Source: Escherichia phage vB_EcoM_PTE-Eco05. From it: DNA of 64,000 nt. The number at the start of each line of letters is the position of its first letter. Position 1 is the stretch's first letter. A program made the translations under genes and the position numbers. Where the stretch lies: the sequence record PQ306573.1. One strand, given 5' to 3'. The notes beneath the pieces were generated by a model, which saw only the letters and a list, made by a program, of their open reading frames with translations, ran no database searches and was not told the origin of the DNA. Positions 10,396 to 57,682 of this stretch are shown one piece after another.

Positions 10396-11258
10396 TATTG
10401 AGCGACCCTAATTTTCTGAGCTGAAATAACTTTAGCTGCCACTCGAAGACCATTTATATGTGAAGAAACTGTCATAGTGGCAAAATTGTTAATTATCGAA
10501 AAACTAATATTAGCAATTTCGTCTTCTTCGTTATCATTACCAACGCGCATCACTGCGTATTCGGTTGAAATAACTCTTGAATTAATTGTATCTATTAGAA
10601 TATTTATTTCGCATGATTTAATTTTTCTGCCGTTGGCAGATTGGCATGTAACCAAAAGTTTAGCAGCATTATATTCAGTTTTATAAAATAGAGGAATATT
10701 GACATAGTCTGAAATAATATTCCATGTCCCGTCTACAGGAATTTCGGTATGACTAAACATACTTTCTGTAGAATAATCCCATATTGAACCGCCTGCACCA
10801 GAAGAAATACAACGAAGAGTAACTTTAGTATAAGGTGTAGTTATAACTAAATTACCTGCAACACCTTTAATAGAATCTAATGCTTGGATACTTAATGGGT
10901 TGTTTACAGAAATTGACCCGTTTGAATTTATAAATTCCACGGAATCGCCGAGTTCACCTCTAGCAACAGTAACAATAACACCACCGGTAGAAGCATCTAT
11001 GTCATGTCTACTTCCTACTGGAACAGGGGTGAAATAATCAGTAGGACCTCCTTTTTGGTAGTATCCAGTGGCATGGATTATTTGTCCATTTGGTCCTGTC
11101 CCATTAGCAGTTGCCATTTTTCGTTGGTCACCAAACGCATTGTAAATAGCATTTATATCATTGTTTATTTTAACACCGCCGTCAAAAAGGATATCGCCTG
11201 TAGAAGCGTTACCAATTTCGCCAACGTCAATCAATTGTTTTGGAGTTTGAATATACAT
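10395..11258 (-). CDS. 9: baseplate wedge, long tail fiber attachment (gp9-like)
   Basis: 287-aa ORF, T4 gp9 size and position; own late promoter upstream. Confidence 0.9.
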   Translation of the reverse strand: MYIQTPKQLIDVGEIGNASTGDILFDGGVKINNDINAIYNAFGDQRKMATANGTGPNGQIIHATGYYQKGGPTDYFTPVPVGSRHDIDASTGGVIVTVARGELGDSVEFINSNGSISVNNPLSIQALDSIKGVAGNLVITTPYTKVTLRCISSGAGGSIWDYSTESMFSHTEIPVDGTWNIISDYVNIPLFYKTEYNAAKLLVTCQSANGRKIKSCEINILIDTINSRVISTEYAVMRVGNDNEEDEIANISFSIINNFATMTVSSHINGLRVAAKVISAQKIRVAQ

Positions 11259-24029: not shown

Positions 24030-24065
24030 GTTTACATAAGGATGATGGTGTGTTACTATCATCCT
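24030..24065 (+). promoter_or_regulatory. early promoter (GTTTAC-N18-TACTAT) with inverted repeat
   Basis: -35 GTTTAC 24030-24035, -10 TACTAT 24054-24059; inverted repeat AGGATGAT/ATCATCCT flanks the -10. Confidence 0.65.
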
Positions 24066-24093
24066 ATCAAATAAACAACCTCAAGGAAATAAA

Positions 24094-24405
24094 ATGAAAA
24101 CCTATCAAGAATTCATCGCGGAAGCTACTAAAGCAGATAAAAATTTTGTTATTAACACTAACGGCCCGTTAGATGATGAATACGCTAATGCTATTATTAA
24201 GTCAATTTCTAATCAAGGCGTTGAAGTATCAAATTTCGAATATAAGAAAAATGATACTTATATGGTAATTAGTATCAAAAAAGGTTCAAAGGCTAAAATT
24301 AAATCTGCATTTGGTGTTATGCGAGTCGACCAAATCGATAACCACGATTTTTCACAAACAGGGGTTAAACGCCAAAATACCATTTCTTCTAAAGGCATAA
24401 AATAA
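24094..24405 (+). CDS. internal protein with capsid-targeting N-terminus (IP family)
   Basis: N-terminus MKTYQEFIAEA matches the T4 internal-protein capsid-targeting/prohead-protease motif; 103 aa; position of ipI. Confidence 0.8.
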   Translation: MKTYQEFIAEATKADKNFVINTNGPLDDEYANAIIKSISNQGVEVSNFEYKKNDTYMVISIKKGSKAKIKSAFGVMRVDQIDNHDFSQTGVKRQNTISSKGIK

Positions 24406-24440
24406 TTTACAACACGATAGGACTATGTTATAGTAGTCCT
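24406..24440 (+). promoter_or_regulatory. early promoter cassette (TTTACA-N17-TATAGT with stem-loop)
   Basis: -35 24406-24411, -10 24429-24434; inverted repeat AGGACTA/TAGTCCT 24419-24440. Confidence 0.65.
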
Positions 24441-24466
24441 ATCAAAACAACCAAATGGAACCTAAA

Positions 24467-25731: not shown

Positions 25732-25806
25732 GGCCCTGTAGCTCAATGGGAGAGCTGTCAGCTCATAACTGATAGGTAGCTGGATCGAAACCAGCCAGGG
25801 CCACCA
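25732..25806 (+). tRNA. tRNA with CAU anticodon (Met, or Ile if lysidine-modified)
   Basis: Hand fold: 7-bp acceptor GGCCCTG/CAGGGCC, D-arm GCTC..GAGC, anticodon loop CTCATAA, T-arm GCTGG-ATCGAAA-CCAGC, encoded CCA. Confidence 0.8.
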
Positions 25807-25812
25807 AACAAA

Positions 25813-25884
25813 CGGTGCATCGTATAAAGGTTATTACGGGGAGCTGTTAACTCCTTTATCTTGGTTCGAGTCCAAGTGCGCCAG
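25813..25884 (+). tRNA. tRNA-Asn (GUU) candidate
   Basis: Anticodon stem GGGAG/CTCCT with loop CTGTTAA; T-arm CTTGG-TTCGAGT-CCAAG; acceptor has one 1-72 mismatch; no encoded CCA. Confidence 0.55.
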
Positions 25885-25958: not shown

Positions 25959-26625
25959 ATGAGCATTTGTAAACATTGTAATATGGAATTTGATATTTCT
26001 AATAAACCTAAAGGATGGATGGCTAACCACACTAGATGGTGTAAATCCAACCCTAAATTGGAATTGTATAAAGAAAGTTCTAAATCAGCCATTGCAGCAA
26101 TGAATAAAGCACGTATAGCTTCAGGTAATTTAAACCAGTATGTTGTATCTAAAAAAGACTGGTGTTCCTGTAGTAATTTCGGAAGAGACTAGACAAAAAT
26201 TGTCAGCCGCTTCATTAGGTAGAGAACACTCTGAGGAATCTAGAATAAAAATATCTAATGCTCTGAAAAAATGGTTGAATGAAAACCCCGATAAACATCC
26301 TTGGAAGAAAAATACAAAATTTAAATCTGTGCCTTGTGAATTTTTGAAATCTAAATTAATAGAAAACGGAATTTCATTTATTGAAGAATACCAACCGGTT
26401 AAAAACCGAGCGTATTGCACGGATATTGCTTTAATAGATAAAAAGATTATTATTGAAGTTAATGGAAACCAACATTACTCCAATCCTAAGAAAAAGATTT
26501 TGGCCCCTTATTATAAAGAACGCCATGATATTATAAAATCATTAGGATGGGAAATATATGAACTTCATTATGCTGAAGTTTATAAAGAAGATATTGTAAA
26601 TAATTTAATTGCCTCTATAGTGTAA
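25959..26625 (+). pseudogene. frameshifted homing-endonuclease-like gene (Zn-finger + NUMOD3-like + DUF559/Vsr-like nuclease domain)
   Basis: Two overlapping frames (25953..26192 and 26140..26625) join at an A6 run near 26151-26156; NUMOD3-like SEETRQKLSAASLG and SEESRIKISNALK; C-terminal IIEVNGNQHY...ERHDIIKSLGWEIYEL resembles DUF559. Confidence 0.6.
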
Positions 26626-26686
26626 TGGATAGCATATAATCATTCTAAGGTTAATGGTGAGAGTTCAAATCTTTCTAGAGGCACCA
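26611..26686 (+). tRNA. tRNA-Arg (UCU)
   Basis: Acceptor GCCTCTA/TAGAGGC, anticodon loop ATTCTAA, T-arm GAGAG-TTCAAAT-CTTTC, encoded CCA; overlaps last 15 nt of the upstream ORF. Confidence 0.75.
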
Positions 26687-27904: not shown

Positions 27905-27931
27905 GCCCCTTCCTTATGGTTGGGGCCTTTT
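27905..27931 (+). terminator. rho-independent terminator (family copy 2)
   Basis: GCCCCTTCCTTATGGTTGGGGC then CTTTT, directly after the stop at 27898. Confidence 0.7.
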
Positions 27932-27964: not shown

Positions 27965-27993
27965 GTTTACTTCTTCTAAGGACATGATACTAT
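27965..27993 (+). promoter_or_regulatory. early promoter (GTTTAC-N17-TACTAT)
   Basis: Upstream of ATG 28022. Confidence 0.6.
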
Positions 27994-28021
27994 AGACTTA
28001 TCAACCATAGAGGAAAATGTT

Positions 28022-28525
28022 ATGAGTCTTTACACTGAACTGAATAAAAAATCTGAAGAATCTGCTGAAACTATTTTTAAAAACGTGCAAAAGCGTATTT
28101 TGGAAAAGATGTACGATGCAGCATCTAAAGGTGAAAAATCTTGCCGGTTTCCGATGAGGTGTTCTTCTGATTTATGCGCAAATACTATTGAATGGCTGGA
28201 AAGTGAAGGTCTTACGGTAGAGAAAAACCCGGCGACTTCTATTGACGGCGAATCATATATTAGTATTTCTTGGGATAAATCAAGGGTAGAAGAGAAAGAT
28301 GGTGATTGGGTTGTAGATGTTAAAACTTCTGATGGTGGACGTTCTGTTGAAGTTTCAGCTGTAGTTAAAGGTACCCACGAACAAAGGACTTGGGGTTGGG
28401 GTGGTGAAGAAAAAGAAATTGTTCTTAGTGTGATTGCCAGGTCAACTAGTAATAAAATTGCACAAAGCATCATTGACGCTGCAATTGCTGAAGCAGAAAA
28501 AATTTGCAAAATTAAAAATAAATGA
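28022..28525 (+). CDS. hypothetical protein
   Basis: 167-aa ORF behind an early promoter. Confidence 0.65.
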   Translation: MSLYTELNKKSEESAETIFKNVQKRILEKMYDAASKGEKSCRFPMRCSSDLCANTIEWLESEGLTVEKNPATSIDGESYISISWDKSRVEEKDGDWVVDVKTSDGGRSVEVSAVVKGTHEQRTWGWGGEEKEIVLSVIARSTSNKIAQSIIDAAIAEAEKICKIKNK

Positions 28526-28795: not shown

Positions 28796-29023
28796 ATGGC
28801 TAAAGTTAGTATTGATGTCGTTGATTATGAATACACAGAAGAAGTTATTCGCAACCGCCACCCTGAAGTTCGTATCGATTCAGTCCAAGATTCCAAGTTC
28901 TGGACAACTGAGCTTAATCTGAGTGGTCCTTATGAAGCTGTTAAGAAGTTCATGGTTGAAGAATACTGCGAAGGCATGCACCCCGAAGACGCCAAGTTTT
29001 ATGTCAATTTGATTAAAAAATAA
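28796..29023 (+). CDS. small hypothetical protein
   Basis: 75-aa ORF. Confidence 0.6.
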   Translation: MAKVSIDVVDYEYTEEVIRNRHPEVRIDSVQDSKFWTTELNLSGPYEAVKKFMVEEYCEGMHPEDAKFYVNLIKK

Positions 29024-29070
29024 TTTACAAACTCTTGAGAGCAGAGTATAATGCTCTCATTGGATAATAA
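29023..29070 (+). repeat. 48-bp exact repeat copy 1 (promoter cassette)
   Basis: ATTTACAAACTCTTGAGAGCAGAGTATAATGCTCTCATTGGATAATAAA, identical to 57616..57663. Confidence 0.85.
29024..29059 (+). promoter_or_regulatory. early promoter (TTTACA-N17-TATAAT) with palindrome around -10
   Basis: -35 29024-29029, -10 29047-29052; TGAGAGCA/TGCTCTCA inverted repeat; part of a 48-bp exact repeat. Confidence 0.7.
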
Positions 29071-29093
29071 ACCACCAATTGAAAGGTAATAAT

Positions 29094-35102: not shown

Positions 35103-35136
35103 GTAATAAATACCTCCTATAAACATGGGAGGTATT

Positions 35137-35625
35137 ATGAATATATTTGAAATGCTTCGTAATGACGAAGGTCTTAGACTGACTTTATACAAAGACACTG
35201 AAGGCTTTTGGACGATTGGCATAGGCCATTTGGTAACAAAGAACCCGTCTTTAGCCGTAGCTAAAGCTGAACTTGACAGAATGATCGGTCGTAAATGCAA
35301 CGGTACAATTACCCTTGATGAGGCTGAAAAGCTATTTAACGAAGACGTTGATAAAGCCGTTCGCGGAATCTTGGGTAATGCTAAACTTAAACCGGTATAT
35401 GATTCTTTAGATGCGGTTCGTCGATGTGCATTGGTCAATATGGTCTTCCAAATGGGTGTAGCAGGCGTCGCTGGTTTTACTAATTCTCTTCGTATGCTTC
35501 AACAGAAACGTTGGGATGAAGCGGCAGTAAATCTAGCCCAATCTAAATGGTATCGTCAGACACCTAATCGCGCGAAACGCGTAATCTCAACATTTAAAAC
35601 AGGAACTTGGAAAGCGTATATATGA
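35137..35625 (+). CDS. e: endolysin (T4 lysozyme)
   Basis: 162 aa, [32 protein letters not shown]..., close to recalled T4 lysozyme. Confidence 0.96.
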
Positions 35626-35903
35626 AAACATATAGTGAATTTTTATCAGAATCTATTCTTAGCGAAGCTACCGACACATTTGCAACTAAGCTAGGTGCAG
35701 CTTTGGTTGAAGCCGAAAGTCTATTAGCACGTATTTCTGAACTTGCTAGTAAGATAGATACTCGCAAATTTGAACGTACCAGCGATATCGCTAAGCTTGA
35801 AGCCTTGTTACGTATGTGCGATAAACCGGAAGAAATCGCTAAGAACGGCTCGCTGATGAAACAACGTCTTGAAAAATATATTTCAGGCGCTTCAGAAAAA
35901 TAG
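35622..35903 (+). CDS. internal protein-like (capsid-targeting N-terminus)
   Basis: [14 protein letters not shown] overlaps the e stop (ATGA); 93 aa. Confidence 0.7.
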
Positions 35904-35904
35904 T

Positions 35905-35957
35905 GTTTACTTCCTCCAAGGACTTTGATACTATACATTCATCAACTACTTGGAGGA
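35905..35957 (+). promoter_or_regulatory. early promoter with anti-Shine-Dalgarno spacer (TCCTCCAAG ... CTTGGAGGA)
   Basis: -35 GTTTAC 35905-35910, -10 TACTAT 35929-35934; 9-bp inverted repeat whose 3-prime arm is the denV ribosome-binding site. Confidence 0.6.
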
Positions 35958-35961
35958 AATT

Positions 35962-36375
35962 ATGACTCGTATCAATTTAACACTTGTTTCTGAACTGACC
36001 GACCAACATCTTATGGCTGAGTATCGTGAATTACCACGCGTATTTGGTGCAGTCCGTAAACATGTTCAAAACGGTAAACGTGTAAAGGATTTTAAAATCT
36101 CTCCAACATTTATCTTAGGCGCAGGTCATGTAACATTCTTTTACGACAAACTCGAATTTTTACGTTTACGTCAAATCGAGCTAATCGCCGAATGTTTGAA
36201 ACGTGGTTTCAAAATCAAGGACACGACTGTCCAGGATATTTCCGACATCCCTGCCGAATTTCGTAATAATTATGTCCCGTCCGAAGCGTCCATTGCGATA
36301 AGTCAAGCACGCTTAGATGAAAAAATTGCTCAACGTCCGACTTGGTACAAATACTATGGTAAATCAATTTACTAA
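35962..36375 (+). CDS. denV: endonuclease V (pyrimidine dimer DNA glycosylase)
   Basis: 137 aa, [31 protein letters not shown]..., close to recalled T4 DenV. Confidence 0.95.
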
Positions 36376-39654: not shown

Positions 39655-39703
39655 GTTTACTTCTCCTCTAGTTGTGTTACTATAGACCTGTCAACTAGAG
39701 GAG
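39655..39703 (+). promoter_or_regulatory. early promoter with anti-Shine-Dalgarno spacer (CCTCTAGTTG ... CAACTAGAGG)
   Basis: -35 GTTTAC 39655-39660, -10 TACTAT 39678-39683; 10-bp perfect inverted repeat 39665-39674 / 39692-39701, 3-prime arm overlaps GAGGAG of regB. Confidence 0.65.
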
Positions 39704-39711
39704 AAATCAAA

Positions 39712-40170
39712 ATGACTATCAATTCGGATGTTTTTATCCGCCGTAATAAACTCCGTCGAATCTTTGAAACGGAGTTCCGCAAAATAAATGCCGGTATAAA
39801 AGATGCTGCAAAGTCTCTTGGACTACCAGGCTTTCATATCAAGTATTCTCAACATCTCTTAGATCGTGCCATCCAGAGAGAAATAGATGAGAATTACGTT
39901 TTTGAATTATTTCATAAAGTAAAAAATCACGTTAAAGAAGTTGCAGAATTTTTATCAATGCCGGCACGTCCGGATGTTGATGAAGATTTTGTCGAAGGTG
40001 TCGAATATCGCCCAGGCCGTTTAGAAATAACTGACGGAAATCTTTGGTTAGGACTTACAGTTTGTCGCGAAAATCCGGCATTCAAAATGAAGACTCTTCA
40101 ATGTAGAATGGCTATTATTAACAGTAAACGACTACCAGGAAAAGCTTCTAAAGCAGTGATTAAAATCTAG
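39712..40170 (+). CDS. regB: endoribonuclease RegB
   Basis: 152 aa, MTINSDVFIRRNKLRR...YSQHLLDRAIQREIDE..., close to recalled T4 RegB. Confidence 0.93.
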   Translation: MTINSDVFIRRNKLRRIFETEFRKINAGIKDAAKSLGLPGFHIKYSQHLLDRAIQREIDENYVFELFHKVKNHVKEVAEFLSMPARPDVDEDFVEGVEYRPGRLEITDGNLWLGLTVCRENPAFKMKTLQCRMAIINSKRLPGKASKAVIKI

Positions 40171-43472: not shown

Positions 43473-43477
43473 TCAAA

Positions 43478-43505
43478 GCCCCTTCCGAAAGGTTGGGGCT
43501 TTTTT
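43478..43505 (+). terminator. rho-independent terminator (family copy 4, GAAA loop)
   Basis: GCCCCTTCC-GAAA-GGTTGGGGC + TTTTTT. Confidence 0.7.
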
Positions 43506-43515
43506 GCATTTAGCA

Positions 43516-43566
43516 GTTTACTTCTCCTCAGGTTGTGTTATAGTAGACCTTACTTACTAGAGGAGA
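43516..43566 (+). promoter_or_regulatory. early promoter with anti-Shine-Dalgarno spacer
   Basis: -35 GTTTAC 43516-43521, -10 TATAGT 43539-43544; spacer TCTCCT complementary to AGGAGA 43561-43566. Confidence 0.6.
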
Positions 43567-43571
43567 ACGTT

Positions 43572-43751
43572 ATGTCACGTAAAGAAAAAATTTCTAAGTT
43601 AATGTTTTTGATTGAAGAGTACGCTAACGCTGTATCCGATTGGGAAAATGCTCATGGTTGCGAAGATGGAGACATCGACATTAACAGAGCTATGAAAAAG
43701 ATGGCTGATACGCACACCGAATTACAAATGTATGTTAACGAGATTATGTGA
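43572..43751 (+). CDS. small hypothetical protein
   Basis: 59 aa from MSRKEKISK. Confidence 0.55.
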   Translation: MSRKEKISKLMFLIEEYANAVSDWENAHGCEDGDIDINRAMKKMADTHTELQMYVNEIM

Positions 43752-43758
43752 GGATATT

Positions 43759-43965
43759 ATGCTTTACGATTATACTGGAAAATCCGAAGATGGTGTACTT
43801 GAACTTTTACCTGAAAGCGTTGAAGATGATGATACGGTGGTGATGTTTTGTAAAAATGGTCCTGGGGATAAGGGATGGATTTATCTTCGCCAAGAAAATG
43901 ACCTAATTGTTTTGGACCCTAAACAAGTTGAAGAACTTTATCAACATTTAAAACACAATCGGTAG
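43759..43965 (+). CDS. small acidic hypothetical protein
   Basis: 68 aa from MLYDYTGKSEDG after GAGGA. Confidence 0.55.
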   Translation: MLYDYTGKSEDGVLELLPESVEDDDTVVMFCKNGPGDKGWIYLRQENDLIVLDPKQVEELYQHLKHNR

Positions 43966-43994
43966 TTTACATCTTGATAGGACTATGGTATAGT
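43965..43994 (+). promoter_or_regulatory. early promoter cassette (GTTTAC-N18-TATAGT)
   Basis: TAGGACTATGGTATAGTAGTCCTACCAAAACAA core. Confidence 0.6.
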
Positions 43995-44022
43995 AGTCCT
44001 ACCAAAACAAATGGAGAACAAA

Positions 44023-48051: not shown

Positions 48052-48080
48052 GTTTACAAGGTCTATGGTTATGTTATTAT
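48052..48080 (+). promoter_or_regulatory. early promoter (GTTTAC-N17-TATTAT) with AGGTCT/AGACCT inverted repeat
   Basis: Upstream of ATG 48108. Confidence 0.6.
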
Positions 48081-48107
48081 AGACCTATCAACTACTGGAG
48101 GTAAAAC

Positions 48108-56557: not shown

Positions 56558-56724
56558 CCAGGTGCCGCCTGGTCTTCTTTATCTCATTTCTAATATAATC
56601 CATTGGAATCTTCACTTCACTATCTCCTTGGGCCCCTCTCAAATAAAAAATATTTTCATAAAACAGTTTTACATCCTCAATAGATGTGTTAAGATTAACA
56701 CCATCTACCGCAGAGGAAAACAAA

Positions 56725-56973
56725 ATGATTAGTCTGAATTCGAAGAAAGTTGTTCTATCTCTTAATGTAAATAACGAACGTCCGATATTCATTACCATTT
56801 CCGATTTGAACGTTGAAATTGCTAATGGCATCCGTACTTATCAAACGTCTAAAACACATTGGGACTATATCCCGATGTTGACGCTTACTCAGCGTTTAGA
56901 AGCAATTGGCCTTAAAGACCTTTCAGTAAGTGAAGTGAATTTTATCAAACGCGTTGTATCAATCAACCTCTGA
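56725..56973 (+). CDS. hypothetical protein
   Basis: 82 aa from MISLNSKKV after AGAGGA. Confidence 0.5.
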   Translation: MISLNSKKVVLSLNVNNERPIFITISDLNVEIANGIRTYQTSKTHWDYIPMLTLTQRLEAIGLKDLSVSEVNFIKRVVSINL

Positions 56974-57615: not shown

Positions 57616-57663
57616 ATTTACAAACTCTTGAGAGCAGAGTATAATGCTCTCATTGGATAATAA
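57616..57663 (+). repeat. 48-bp exact repeat copy 2 (promoter cassette)
   Basis: Identical to 29023..29070. Confidence 0.85.
57617..57652 (+). promoter_or_regulatory. early promoter (TTTACA-N17-TATAAT), second copy of the 48-bp repeat
   Basis: -35 57617-57622, -10 57640-57645; sequence identical to 29023-29070. Confidence 0.7.
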
Positions 57664-57682
57664 AATAACCGAGGAAAATAAT

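What the first reader, a model, noticed from the sequence alone, without database searches (positions are those of the whole stretch)
39655..39703. Early promoters whose spacer is the complement of the downstream Shine-Dalgarno sequence
At least three early promoters (35905-35957 before denV, 39655-39703 before regB, 43516-43566) place a TCCTCC/CTCCTC-type sequence directly after the -35 GTTTAC, forming a 9-10 bp perfect inverted repeat with the GGAGGA ribosome-binding site of the gene they drive. Read-through transcripts from upstream would contain both arms and occlude the ribosome-binding site, whereas transcripts initiated at the local promoter start between the arms and leave it free. This would couple translation to local initiation, analogous to the known T4 gene 49 and I-TevI arrangement but applied to early promoters.
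Basis: seen in the sequence. Interest (0 to 1): 0.65.

Follow-up and report, generated by a model that had tools for sequence, protein, structure and literature searches.

The report
Early promoters that hide ribosome sites
In this RB69-like T4-type phage, several early promoters carry in their spacer the exact complement of their gene's ribosome-binding site, so RNA arriving from upstream should fold the site shut while RNA started at the promoter leaves it open; this extends a trick known only for T4 late genes to early genes, and is so far supported by sequence and folding analysis only.

Summary
The window is an RB69-like Mosigvirus. At the three named sites the bases right after the -35 GTTTAC pair perfectly with the Shine-Dalgarno region: 14 bp for regB, 10 bp for denV and 8 bp for a DUF7438 gene. 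Of 61 SD+ATG sites on the + strand only these three have such a stem (0.65 expected by chance).

Pairing is under selection. regB leaders in six genera and denV leaders in several lineages keep 9-15 bp stems with different sequences. The stems run 2-5 nt past the purine core into 12 different flanks, each complemented in the spacer. Leaders either have a long stem or none. T4 shows the same design at 7 of 33 early promoter units.

Folding predicts SD occlusion only in read-through RNA. The extra cost of opening the ribosome site is 14.3 kcal/mol for regB and 10.9 for denV, against 12.0 for the gene e homolog used as positive control and 1.8 +/- 2.0 for 14 other promoters. The third site is weaker and sits behind a terminator.

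It is a new variant of a known kind: T4 e/soc/49/I-TevI logic with a sigma-70 early promoter, inside PeSL-type cassettes. Transcript starts and the translational effect remain untested.

The parts
39655..39660 (+). regB early promoter, -35 hexamer GTTTAC
   Evidence: Sequence. Matches the T4-type early promoter consensus (PMC1524935). Conserved in regB orthologs of several genera.
39661..39674 (+). regB 5' arm (anti-SD) TTCTCCTCTAGTTG, inside the promoter spacer
   Evidence: 14-bp perfect complement of 39692-39705. Orthologs keep the pairing with different sequence.
39678..39683 (+). regB promoter -10 hexamer TACTAT, in the hairpin loop; predicted +1 near 39690
   Evidence: 17-nt spacer after GTTTAC. 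The +1 position is inferred from the RB69 logo convention and was not mapped.
39692..39705 (+). regB 3' arm CAACTAGAGGAGAA, containing the Shine-Dalgarno GGAG
   Evidence: hairpin -21.6 kcal/mol, z -4.9; ddG to open 14.3 kcal/mol.
39712..40170 (+). regB coding sequence (RegB endoribonuclease)
   Evidence: ORF list; PF10715 E=6e-69; RB69 annotation.
35905..35910 (+). denV early promoter, -35 hexamer GTTTAC
   Evidence: Identical in RB69.
35911..35920 (+). denV 5' arm (anti-SD) TTCCTCCAAG, in the spacer
   Evidence: 10-bp perfect complement of 35949-35958. Four different stem versions occur among denV orthologs.
35929..35934 (+). denV promoter -10 hexamer TACTAT; predicted +1 near 35941
   Evidence: 18-nt spacer. 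The +1 position is inferred.
35949..35958 (+). denV 3' arm CTTGGAGGAA, containing the SD
   Evidence: -17.8 kcal/mol, z -5.2; SD unpaired 0.57 falling to 0.00; ddG 10.9.
35962..36375 (+). denV coding sequence (endonuclease V)
   Evidence: PF03013 and phrog_1183; RB69 annotation.
43476..43506 (+). Terminator-like GC-rich stem plus T-run (aaagCCCCttccgaaaggttGGGGcttttttgc) directly upstream of the third promoter
   Evidence: Read from the sequence and folded. The simple scan missed it because of the interior loop.
43516..43544 (+). Third early promoter: GTTTAC 43516-43521, 5' arm TTCTCCTC 43522-43529, -10 TATAGT 43539-43544; predicted +1 near 43551
   Evidence: Paralogous to the regB cassette.
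43560..43567 (+). Third unit 3' arm GAGGAGAA (SD)
   Evidence: 8 bp perfect. Weak by z-score (-0.85). ddG 7.1.
43572..43751 (+). 59-aa DUF7438 gene driven by the third promoter
   Evidence: Not at the corresponding RB69 position.
27965..28024 (+). Additional anti-SD unit: GTTTAC 27965-27970, arm TTCTTCTA 27971-27978, -10 27988-27993, arm TAGAGGAA 28008-28015 (one G.U), ATG 28022
   Evidence: -12.1 kcal/mol, z -1.8; ddG 8.1.
56667..56727 (+). Weak or possible anti-SD unit: TTTTAC, outer TCCTC 56674-56678 / GAGGA 56713-56717, inner TAGATG 56681-56686 / CATCTA 56702-56707, ATG 56725 (DUF7290 gene)
   Evidence: -14.7 kcal/mol, z -4.5. ddG of 4.4 lies within the control range.
35110..35139 (+). Comparator in the same window: gene e leader hairpin ATACCTCC 35110-35117 / GGAGGTAT 35128-35135, ATG 35137, with late-promoter-like TATAAA motifs around the 5' arm
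   Evidence: -14.1 kcal/mol; ddG 12.0. The mechanism is known for T4 e (PMC3014915).

Best explanation
These are self-gating early promoter-leader cassettes. The 5' arm of an RNA hairpin is written into the spacer of a sigma-70-type T-even early promoter, directly after the -35 GTTTAC. The 3' arm is the Shine-Dalgarno sequence plus 2-5 flanking bases of the gene the promoter drives.

RNA polymerase starting at the promoter begins about 7 nt after the -10, between the arms. Its short leader of about 20 nt lacks the 5' arm, so the SD is free. RNA arriving from upstream promoters carries both arms and folds into a 9-15 bp helix (-17 to -22 kcal/mol for denV and regB) that buries the SD. Such RNA includes early read-through, middle transcripts, and for denV the late transcripts of gene e just upstream. 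Translation of regB, denV and similar genes would therefore be restricted to transcripts from their own early promoter, meaning the brief immediate-early burst.

Because RegB cuts only unstructured GGAG, the same helix should also shield the site from RegB in read-through RNA.

Shown: the sequence geometry, selection for pairing, and predicted thermodynamics comparable to the T4 gene e hairpin. Inferred: the start sites, formation of the helix in vivo, and the effect on translation and on RegB cleavage.
For: Geometry: the arms flank the -10 and the predicted +1 at all sites.

Specificity: only 3 of 61 SD+ATG sites have a perfect upstream stem of 8 bp or more, and all three abut GTTTAC. Shuffled spacers give about 1% per promoter.

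Selection for pairing:
- regB leaders of Mosigvirus, Tequatrovirus, Moonvirus, Gelderlandvirus, Dhakavirus and Winklervirus keep 11-15 bp stems with different sequences. The SD core itself changes (GAGGAG, CAGGAG, TGAGGA) and the spacer tracks it.
- denV leaders show four different stem versions.
- Of 14 distinct stems, 12 extend into different non-SD flanks, each matched by its complement. The only deviations are G.U.
- Stem lengths are bimodal: 9-15 bp, or no more than 7 bp at chance level.
- Interior non-Watson-Crick pairs are 6 G.U to 1 A.C, which leans towards sense-strand RNA.

Replication in T4: 7 of 33 early promoter units, including regB, denV, alc, nrdC.8 and 30.8.

Thermodynamics:
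- Hairpin z-scores are -4.9 and -5.2.
- SD unpaired probability falls from 0.67 to 0.17, against 0.64 to 0.53 in other promoters.
- ddG to open the ribosome site is 14.3, 10.9, 8.1 and 7.1 kcal/mol, against 1.8 +/- 2.0 (max 4.8) in 14 controls and 12.0 for the gene e positive control.
- The regB and denV helices are predicted to be more stable than the T4 e hairpin at -13.3 kcal/mol, which is reported to lower lysozyme synthesis about 100-fold (PMC3014915).

Read-through is plausible: no terminator-like site lies between upstream promoters and regB or denV.

RegB is inhibited by secondary structure, and 16 RegB-resistant GGAG sites lie in stable structures (PMC1702504).
Against: - No transcript 5' ends, structure probing or translation data exist for these leaders. 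Everything functional is prediction.
- The loops are long (17-28 nt), so folding competes kinetically with ribosome loading on nascent RNA.
- The upstream ORF stops only 7 nt (denV) or 10 nt (regB) before the 5' arm. Terminating ribosomes might fray the helix and allow coupled re-initiation rather than a full block.
- Two of the five units (43516, 27965) sit right behind terminators, where read-through may be scarce and the gating little needed.
- 43516 is not significant by z-score, and 56667 falls in the control range.
- Many denV orthologs (18 of 31 distinct leaders) and the Gaprivervirus and L026 regB leaders lack the stem, so it is dispensable.
- Most early promoters carry a spacer hairpin that does not reach the SD. 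Some other hairpin function could therefore be primary, with SD pairing one positional variant.
- The G.U versus A.C asymmetry is not significant (p = 0.06).
Confidence: 0.6

Rival explanations
1. The helix exists mainly to shield the GGAG in read-through RNA from the phage RegB endoribonuclease. This would keep long polycistronic transcripts and their downstream genes from being cut and degraded. Translational silencing would be a side effect.
For: RegB cuts GGAG in SD sequences of early mRNAs and is blocked by secondary structure, and 16 RegB-resistant GGAG RNAs lie in stable structures including intergenic stem-loops (PMC1702504; PMC3014915). The most conserved case is the regB leader itself, whose SD RegB is known to cut in T4. 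Most 3' arms contain GGAG.
Against: - Some stems cover SDs without GGAG: X20 regB TGAGGA, window 27965 AGAGGAA, T4 motB.2 TGAGGA.
- The T4 denV SD is RegB-resistant in vivo because of the sequence 3' of GGAG, independently of structure, yet it has a 10-bp stem.
- A helix that buries the SD necessarily blocks 30S binding too, so the two effects cannot be separated by sequence.
Confidence: 0.15
2. These are ordinary PeSL stem-loops acting on transcription. As proposed for RB49/phi1, the hairpin attenuates or terminates polymerases coming from upstream, insulating the promoter. That the 3' arm falls on the SD is incidental.
For: The cassettes fit the PeSL description: early promoter, stem-loop, SD and ATG, repeated and exchanged between genes (PMC2839356; PMC4122927). 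A PeSL stem-loop from RB49 lowered downstream lacZ as much as rrnB T1. Most promoters in the window carry spacer hairpins that do not involve the SD.
Against: - There is no U-tract after the 3' arm (AAAUCAAAAUG, AAUUAUG), and the loops are 17-28 nt. None is called terminator-like.
- Where termination is wanted, separate canonical terminators sit upstream (43476-43506 and upstream of 27965).
- The 3' arm is placed on the SD in more than 12 independent sequence versions. That is not expected if position were incidental.
- The five PeSL positions described all lie within or next to the promoter, not at the SD.
Confidence: 0.1
3. The helix enforces translational coupling rather than a block. In read-through RNA the downstream gene is translated only when a ribosome finishing the upstream ORF melts the outer base pairs, tying its expression to upstream translation.
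For: The upstream stop codons lie only 7 nt (denV: TAG 35901-35903, arm from 35911) and 10 nt (regB: TAA 39648-39650, arm from 39661) before the 5' arm. That is close to the leading edge of a terminating ribosome.
Against: - The SD lies 40-45 nt beyond the stop codon, far for re-initiation.
- Only the outermost 0-3 pairs could be reached (inference from ribosome footprint size).
- Units 43516 and 27965 have no adjacent upstream ORF, only a terminator.
- The 5' arm is anchored to the -35 in all versions, not to the stop codon.
Confidence: 0.07
4. The inverted repeat acts at the DNA level, or has no function. It could be a cruciform, a protein-binding palindrome, a recombination site used in cassette shuffling, or a hitch-hiking feature of a duplicated cassette.
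For: Cassettes are clearly exchanged. The T4 denV cassette is close to the Dhakavirus regB cassette, T4 alc and alt.-3 share one cassette, and the 43516 cassette is absent at the RB69 position. PeSLs are proposed recombination sites.
Against: - More than 12 different arm sequences all preserve pairing, which common descent alone does not explain.
- Deviations are G.U rather than A.C (6 to 1), as expected for sense-strand RNA and not for DNA.
- The 3' arm always covers the SD.
- The length distribution is bimodal.
Confidence: 0.05

Closest known systems
T4 gene e (lysozyme) leader, and the soc, 49, I-TevI, segB and Aeh1 mobE leaders: an RBS-sequestering hairpin with an internal promoter
   Same: The SD is buried in a helix in transcripts started upstream. 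A promoter placed inside the hairpin region yields transcripts that lack the 5' arm and can be translated (PMC3014915; PMC2988022). The window's e homolog (35110-35139) gives the same size of predicted effect as regB and denV.
   Different: In all documented cases the internal promoter is a late (gp55, TATAAATA) or middle promoter and the gene is late. Edgell et al. 2010 say these genes 'are all late genes'. Here the promoter is a sigma-70-type early promoter whose own 17-18 nt spacer encodes the 5' arm, and the genes are early (regB, denV). The gate would therefore confine translation to the earliest minutes rather than delay it. No TATAAATA lies at these sites.
PeSL (promoter-early stem-loop) cassettes of T4-type phages (Arbiol et al. 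2010; Comeau et al. 2014)
   Same: An intergenic early promoter with an AT-rich upstream region, an associated stem-loop, then SD and ATG. The cassettes are repeated through the early regions, linked to variable ORFs, and exchanged between genes (here).
   Different: Described PeSL stem-loops occupy five positions within or next to the promoter and are read as terminators or attenuators and as recombination sites. Here the 3' arm reaches the SD, the helix has no terminator features, and the predicted effect is on translation.
RegB / ribosomal protein S1 control of early mRNAs at GGAG
   Same: It acts on the same SD sequences of the same early genes. regB mRNA is itself a RegB target, and structure blocks RegB.
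   Different: RegB is a trans-acting nuclease. The feature here is a cis RNA helix, and some of the stems cover SDs without GGAG.
Intrinsic (Rho-independent) terminators placed before promoters
   Same: A stem-loop in an intergenic region between early genes.
   Different: These helices have no T-run, have long loops, and overlap the promoter and SD rather than preceding the promoter. True terminators occur separately upstream of 43516 and 27965.

Membership tests
Promoter-in-hairpin translational gating (T4 e / soc / 49 / I-TevI type) | SD and/or AUG sequestered in a stable RNA helix in transcripts initiated upstream | tested here: met
   In silico only. Helices of -21.6 (regB) and -17.8 (denV) kcal/mol, z about -5. 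SD unpaired probability falls from 0.67 to 0.17. ddG to open is 14.3 and 10.9, against 12.0 for the gene e control.
Promoter-in-hairpin translational gating (T4 e / soc / 49 / I-TevI type) | A promoter placed so that its transcripts start between the arms and lack the 5' arm | tested here: met
   Promoter geometry from the sequence: the -35 abuts the 5' arm, the -10 is in the loop, and the predicted +1 (7th nt after the -10, per PMC1524935) lies 2-9 nt upstream of the 3' arm. The real 5' ends were not mapped.
Promoter-in-hairpin translational gating (T4 e / soc / 49 / I-TevI type) | The internal promoter is a late (or middle) promoter and the gated gene is a late gene | tested here: not met
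   The promoters are GTTTAC-N17/18-TAnnnT early type. No TATAAATA lies at these sites. regB and denV are early genes.
Promoter-in-hairpin translational gating (T4 e / soc / 49 / I-TevI type) | Demonstrated difference in translation between long and short transcripts | not testable with these tools
   Needs reporter fusions, toeprinting or ribosome profiling.
PeSL cassettes (Arbiol 2010) | Sigma-70-like early promoter in an intergenic region, followed by SD and start codon | tested here: met
PeSL cassettes (Arbiol 2010) | Stem-loop in one of the five described positions (upstream of -35, over -35, between the boxes, over -10, or just before +1) | tested here: not met
   The 5' arm lies between the boxes, but the 3' arm lies at the SD, 8-20 nt downstream of the predicted +1. 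The five positions are listed. Most other promoters in the window do fit the 'over -10' subclass.
PeSL cassettes (Arbiol 2010) | Repeated cassette, linked to variable ORFs and exchanged between loci | tested here: met
   The regB and 43516 cassettes are paralogous. The T4 denV cassette is close to the Dhakavirus regB cassette. T4 alc and alt.-3 share a cassette. The 43516 unit is absent at the RB69 position.
PeSL cassettes (Arbiol 2010) | The stem-loop works as a transcription terminator or attenuator | tested here: inconclusive
   Sequence features of an intrinsic terminator are absent (no T-run, long loop), but activity was not measured.
Intrinsic terminator | GC-rich stem with a short loop, followed by a T-run | tested here: not met
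   calls none of the anti-SD helices. The tails are AAATCAAAATG, AATTATG and CGTTATG.
Curated RNA families (Rfam 15) | Match to a covariance model at the gathering score | tested here: not met
   Only three tRNAs in the window.

The most novel reading that the evidence does not exclude
About a fifth of early promoter units across Tevenvirinae are portable, self-insulating expression cassettes. The promoter spacer doubles as an anti-SD, so a gene dropped into a densely transcribed early region is translated only from its own promoter, during the first minutes of infection. On read-through RNA of any origin the same gene is invisible both to ribosomes and to RegB. Together with the late-promoter hairpins such as gene e, 800 bp upstream of denV, this would give T-even phages a two-way, promoter-addressed code for which cistrons of a polycistronic RNA are translated at each stage. 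It would also help explain why these cassettes shuffle so freely.
Probability: 0.35. Interest if true: 0.65.

Novelty: new variant of a known kind. Interest (0 to 1): 0.5.

Why it matters
RBS sequestration with an internal promoter is a textbook T4 device, but reviews describe it only for late genes, as a way to delay translation (PMC2988022, PMC3014915). If the early-promoter version works as predicted, the same device is used in the opposite temporal sense. It would confine proteins such as the RegB RNase and endonuclease V to the immediate-early burst even though their coding regions keep being transcribed from upstream.

This would bear on three things:
- how early protein synthesis is shut off so sharply;
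- why some GGAG sites resist RegB;
- how genes can be inserted into, or swapped within, polycistronic early regions without being driven by their neighbours.

It also gives the widely noted but functionally vague PeSL stem-loops one concrete, testable role. It offers a compact design for synthetic biology too: a promoter of about 55 bp whose gene is translated only from that promoter.

Tried and rejected
- **Chance.** Rejected by spacer shuffles, the survey of all SD sites and hairpin z-scores. Site 43516 is not significant on its own.
- **Trivial composition** (pyrimidine-rich spacer against purine-rich SD). Rejected because the stems extend into 12 different non-SD flanks, each complemented in the spacer.
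- **Terminator.** No terminator features.
- **Known RNA family.** None in Rfam.
- **Sequence-based alignment with RNAalifold on regB leaders.** Only 5 pairs recovered, 2 of them compensatory, because indels put the arms out of register. I counted pairs per stem instead. That registration is fitted to the structure.
- **G.U versus A.C asymmetry**, used to separate RNA-level from DNA-level selection. It leans towards RNA (6 to 1) but is underpowered (p = 0.06).
- **Curated T4 promoter or stem-loop features.** NC_000866 and AF158101 carry none.
- **Literature.** Miller et al. 2003 (PMC150520) and Valerie et al. 1986 (NAR 14:8637) are not held. I recall the abstract of the latter saying that sequences preceding ipIII, ipII, denV and orf61.9 (= regB) can form stable stem-loops. 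That recollection is unverified. If it is correct, the structures were seen in 1986, although I found no functional reading of them.
- **T4 start-site or Ribo-seq data.** Searches found nothing usable.
- **** used a wrong ATG for 43516. This was corrected.
Full report
**What the window is.** The region is 99.8% identical to Escherichia phage AV109 and 98.5% identical to RB69 (genus Mosigvirus, Tevenvirinae). The + strand of the window is the reverse of the RB69 record. The genes behind the three promoters are:
- regB (PF10715, E = 6e-69);
- denV (PF03013);
- a gene for a 59-aa DUF7438 protein.

| Unit | -35 GTTTAC | 5' arm | -10 | 3' arm | ATG | Perfect stem |
|---|---|---|---|---|---|---|
| regB | 39655-39660 | TTCTCCTCTAGTTG 39661-39674 | TACTAT 39678-39683 | CAACTAGAGGAGAA 39692-39705 | 39712 | 14 bp |
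| denV | 35905-35910 | TTCCTCCAAG 35911-35920 | 35929-35934 | CTTGGAGGAA 35949-35958 | 35962 | 10 bp |
| DUF7438 | 43516-43521 | TTCTCCTC 43522-43529 | TATAGT 43539-43544 | GAGGAGAA 43560-43567 | 43572 | 8 bp |

RB69 itself has identical regB and denV leaders.

**Is it more than chance?**
- I listed 22 gene-proximal GTTTAC-type promoters on the + strand.
- With shuffled spacers, a perfect stem of 8 bp or more to the downstream leader appears in about 1.1% of trials, and 10 bp or more in about 0.05%.
- Taking every SD+ATG site on the + strand (61 sites, real starts and look-alikes), only three have a perfect stem of 8 bp or more from -75..-22 onto the SD, against 0.65 expected.
- Hairpin energies against dinucleotide shuffles are -21.6 kcal/mol (z -4.9) for regB and -17.8 (z -5.2) for denV.
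- The third site reaches only -14.0 (z -0.85; 38 of 200 shuffles fold as well). It is convincing chiefly as a paralog of the regB cassette.
- Two weaker members turned up: 27965 (TTCTTCTA/TAGAGGAA with one G.U) and 56667 (a two-part stem).

**Wider context in the window.** Nine of the 22 promoters have a perfect stem of 8 bp or more between the spacer and downstream sequence, against about 0.2 expected. In six of them the 3' arm lies directly after the -10 and not on the SD, for example GATAGGACTA/TAGTCCTATC at 24405. These match the published PeSL (promoter-early stem-loop) cassettes of T4-type phages. PeSL stem-loops were sorted into five positions within or next to the promoter and read as terminators or attenuators and as recombination sites (PMC2839356; PMC4122927). 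None of the five positions reaches the SD. The anti-SD promoters are thus a minority positional class (5 of 22) of a broader cassette family.

**Comparative evidence for regB.** BLAST matches in other genera begin exactly at the -35. Leaders from six genera keep a stem from spacer to SD, each with a different sequence:

| Genus | Stem |
|---|---|
| Mosigvirus (window) | TTCTCCTCTAGTTG/CAACTAGAGGAGAA |
| Tequatrovirus (T4) | TTTTCCTCTTGACTG/CAGTTAAGAGGAGAA, 15 bp with two G.U |
| Gelderlandvirus | TTTCTCCTCTTTATG/CATAAAGAGGAGAAA |
| Moonvirus | TCTCCTGTAAG/CTTACAGGAGA |
| Dhakavirus | ATCTCCTGTAG/CTACAGGAGAT |
| Winklervirus | ATCCTCATTTG/CAAATGAGGAT |

In the Winklervirus leader the SD itself differs and the spacer follows it. 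Gaprivervirus and a distant Aeromonas-type relative have no such stem.

**Comparative evidence for denV.** Four different stem versions exist. Thirteen of 31 distinct leaders have a stem of 9 bp or more, and the other 18 have nothing above chance. The length distribution is sharply bimodal.

**Pairing beyond the SD core.** Of 14 distinct stems, 12 extend 2-5 nt beyond the purine core into flanks that all differ. Each flank is matched by its complement in the spacer, and the only three deviations are G.U. This excludes the trivial reading that a pyrimidine-rich spacer merely happens to pair with a purine-rich SD. Interior non-Watson-Crick positions, counted from Watson-Crick seeds without favouring G.U, are 6 G.U, 1 A.C and 1 A.A (p = 0.06). 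That leans towards selection on sense-strand RNA but is underpowered. A sequence-based alignment with RNAalifold recovers only 5 pairs because of register shifts.

**Replication in T4.** The same census on the T4 genome (AF158101) finds 33 promoter-SD-ATG units. Seven have spacer-to-SD stems at shuffle p of 0.003 or below: regB, denV, nrdC.8, alc, alt.-3, 30.8 and one in the ndd.4 region. motB.2 is a further 10-bp case with one G.U. ipII, mobD.2, ipI, dmd, 30.7 and ipIII have the form that pairs across the -10.

Cassettes are exchanged between genes:
- the T4 denV cassette is almost the same as the Dhakavirus regB cassette;
- T4 alc and alt.-3 share one cassette;
- the 43516 unit is not at the corresponding RB69 position.

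**Predicted mechanism.** Nolan et al. 2006 place +1 at the 7th base after the -10 in RB69 early promoters (PMC1524935). On that basis local transcripts start near 39690, 35941 and 43551, between the arms. These RNAs are almost unstructured at the SD.

In read-through RNA the SD is predicted to be paired. Mean unpaired probability falls from 0.67 to 0.17 for the five anti-SD units, against 0.64 to 0.53 for the other 17 promoters. The class labels come from the pairing, so this measures effect size and is not an independent test.

The extra free energy needed to open -16..+12 in read-through versus local RNA:

| Unit | ddG (kcal/mol) |
|---|---|
| regB | 14.3 |
| gene e leader (35110-35139), positive control | 12.0 |
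| denV | 10.9 |
| 27965 | 8.1 |
| 43516 | 7.1 |
| 56667 | 4.4 |
| 14 other promoters | 1.8 +/- 2.0, max 4.8 |

The T4 e hairpin is predicted at -13.3 kcal/mol and is reported to lower lysozyme synthesis about 100-fold (PMC3014915). The regB and denV helices are predicted to be more stable than that.

No terminator-like site separates regB or denV from upstream promoters. For denV, the late transcripts of gene e should also read through. In contrast, 43516 and 27965 lie directly behind GC-rich stems with T-runs, so little read-through may reach them.

**Link to RegB.** RegB cuts GGAG in the SD of early mRNAs, including its own, and is blocked by secondary structure. Sixteen RegB-resistant GGAG sites lie in stable structures (PMC3014915; PMC1702504). 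The helix should therefore also shield the site in read-through RNA. This cannot be the whole story: some stems cover SDs without GGAG, and the T4 denV SD resists RegB for sequence reasons.

**Rivals.**
- A transcriptional attenuator role, the published PeSL reading, is disfavoured by the lack of a T-run, the long loops and the consistent placement on the SD. It was not tested directly.
- Translational coupling to the upstream ORF is conceivable, because the stop codons lie 7-10 nt before the 5' arm. It does not fit the units that have no adjacent ORF.
- A DNA-level or purely historical origin is disfavoured by the many independent arm sequences and the G.U bias.

**Comparison with what is known.** The logic is that of T4 e, soc, 49, I-TevI, segB and Aeh1 mobE. 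In those cases the internal promoter is late or middle, and a 2010 review states that the genes so regulated "are all late genes" (PMC2988022). The companion review lists only e, soc, 49 and I-TevI.

The feature here fails that one defining point, since it has an early sigma-70-type promoter and early genes, and it meets the others in silico. It also fails the positional definition of the five PeSL subclasses while meeting the rest of the PeSL description. No Rfam family covers it.

From memory, and unverified because the paper is not held, Valerie et al. 1986 noted potential stem-loops before T4 ipIII, ipII, denV and orf61.9 (= regB). If so, the structures were seen long ago. I found no statement of the promoter-spacer/anti-SD relationship or of its consequence in the accessible literature.

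**Verdict.** I rate it a new variant of a known kind, of moderate interest. The steps still to be shown are the transcript 5' ends, formation of the helix in vivo, and the effect on translation and on RegB cleavage.

Noticed in passing
window 24405-24450, 43965-44005, 48052-48095, 24030-24075, 29023-29065, 57616-57660: Most other GTTTAC early promoters carry a different inverted repeat. The spacer pairs with the bases directly after the -10, for example GATAGGACTA/TAGTCCTATC, AGGTCTAT/ATAGACCT and TGAGAGCA/TGCTCTCA, and the arms covary between paralogous cassettes. RNA started locally lacks the whole hairpin and the SD is not involved. This fits the PeSL subclass 'overlapping the -10', and its function is open. 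T4 has the same at ipII (14 bp), mobD.2 (14), ipI (10) and dmd (10).
   Followed up: partly
window 29023-29075 and 57616-57668: Two promoter cassettes 28.6 kb apart are identical over about 50 nt (ATTTACaaactcttgagagcagagTATAATgctctcattggataataaa). They are candidate substrates for the PeSL-mediated recombination described in RB49/phi1.
   Followed up: no
window 35110-35139: The gene e (lysozyme) leader has the known RBS-sequestering hairpin ATACCTCC/GGAGGTAT, with late-promoter-like TATAAA motifs around the 5' arm and the ATG at 35137. It lies about 800 bp upstream of the denV early-promoter hairpin with no terminator between. One read-through path therefore crosses a late-gated and an early-gated cistron in succession.
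   Followed up: partly
L010 4857-4925 (T4 denV leader) versus L005/L006 (Dhakavirus regB leaders); T4 alc and alt.-3 leaders: Nearly identical promoter-leader cassettes precede different genes in different phages (T4 denV and Dhakavirus regB) and in the same phage (T4 alc and alt.-3). This indicates cassette exchange or duplication independent of the coding sequence.
   Followed up: partly
window 43476-43506 and 27905-27930: GC-rich stems with T-runs (intrinsic terminator-like) sit immediately upstream of the 43516 and 27965 promoters, forming composite terminator-promoter-anti-SD units. The simple terminator scan missed them because of interior loops.
   Followed up: no
L023 and L024, about 340-400 (regB leaders from IMG/VR contigs): These regB leaders nest a GC-rich stem across the -10 (GGGCCAT/ATGGCCC) inside a weaker 7-bp anti-SD stem. 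They look like a hybrid of the two hairpin classes.
   Followed up: no
window 43516-43751 versus L001 (RB69) 10400-10520: The 43516 cassette and its DUF7438 gene are not present at the corresponding position of RB69. This is an indel difference between close relatives, flanked by promoter cassettes.
   Followed up: no
window 25732-25803, 25813-25884, 26611-26683: Three tRNA genes on the + strand are the only Rfam matches in the window.
   Followed up: no
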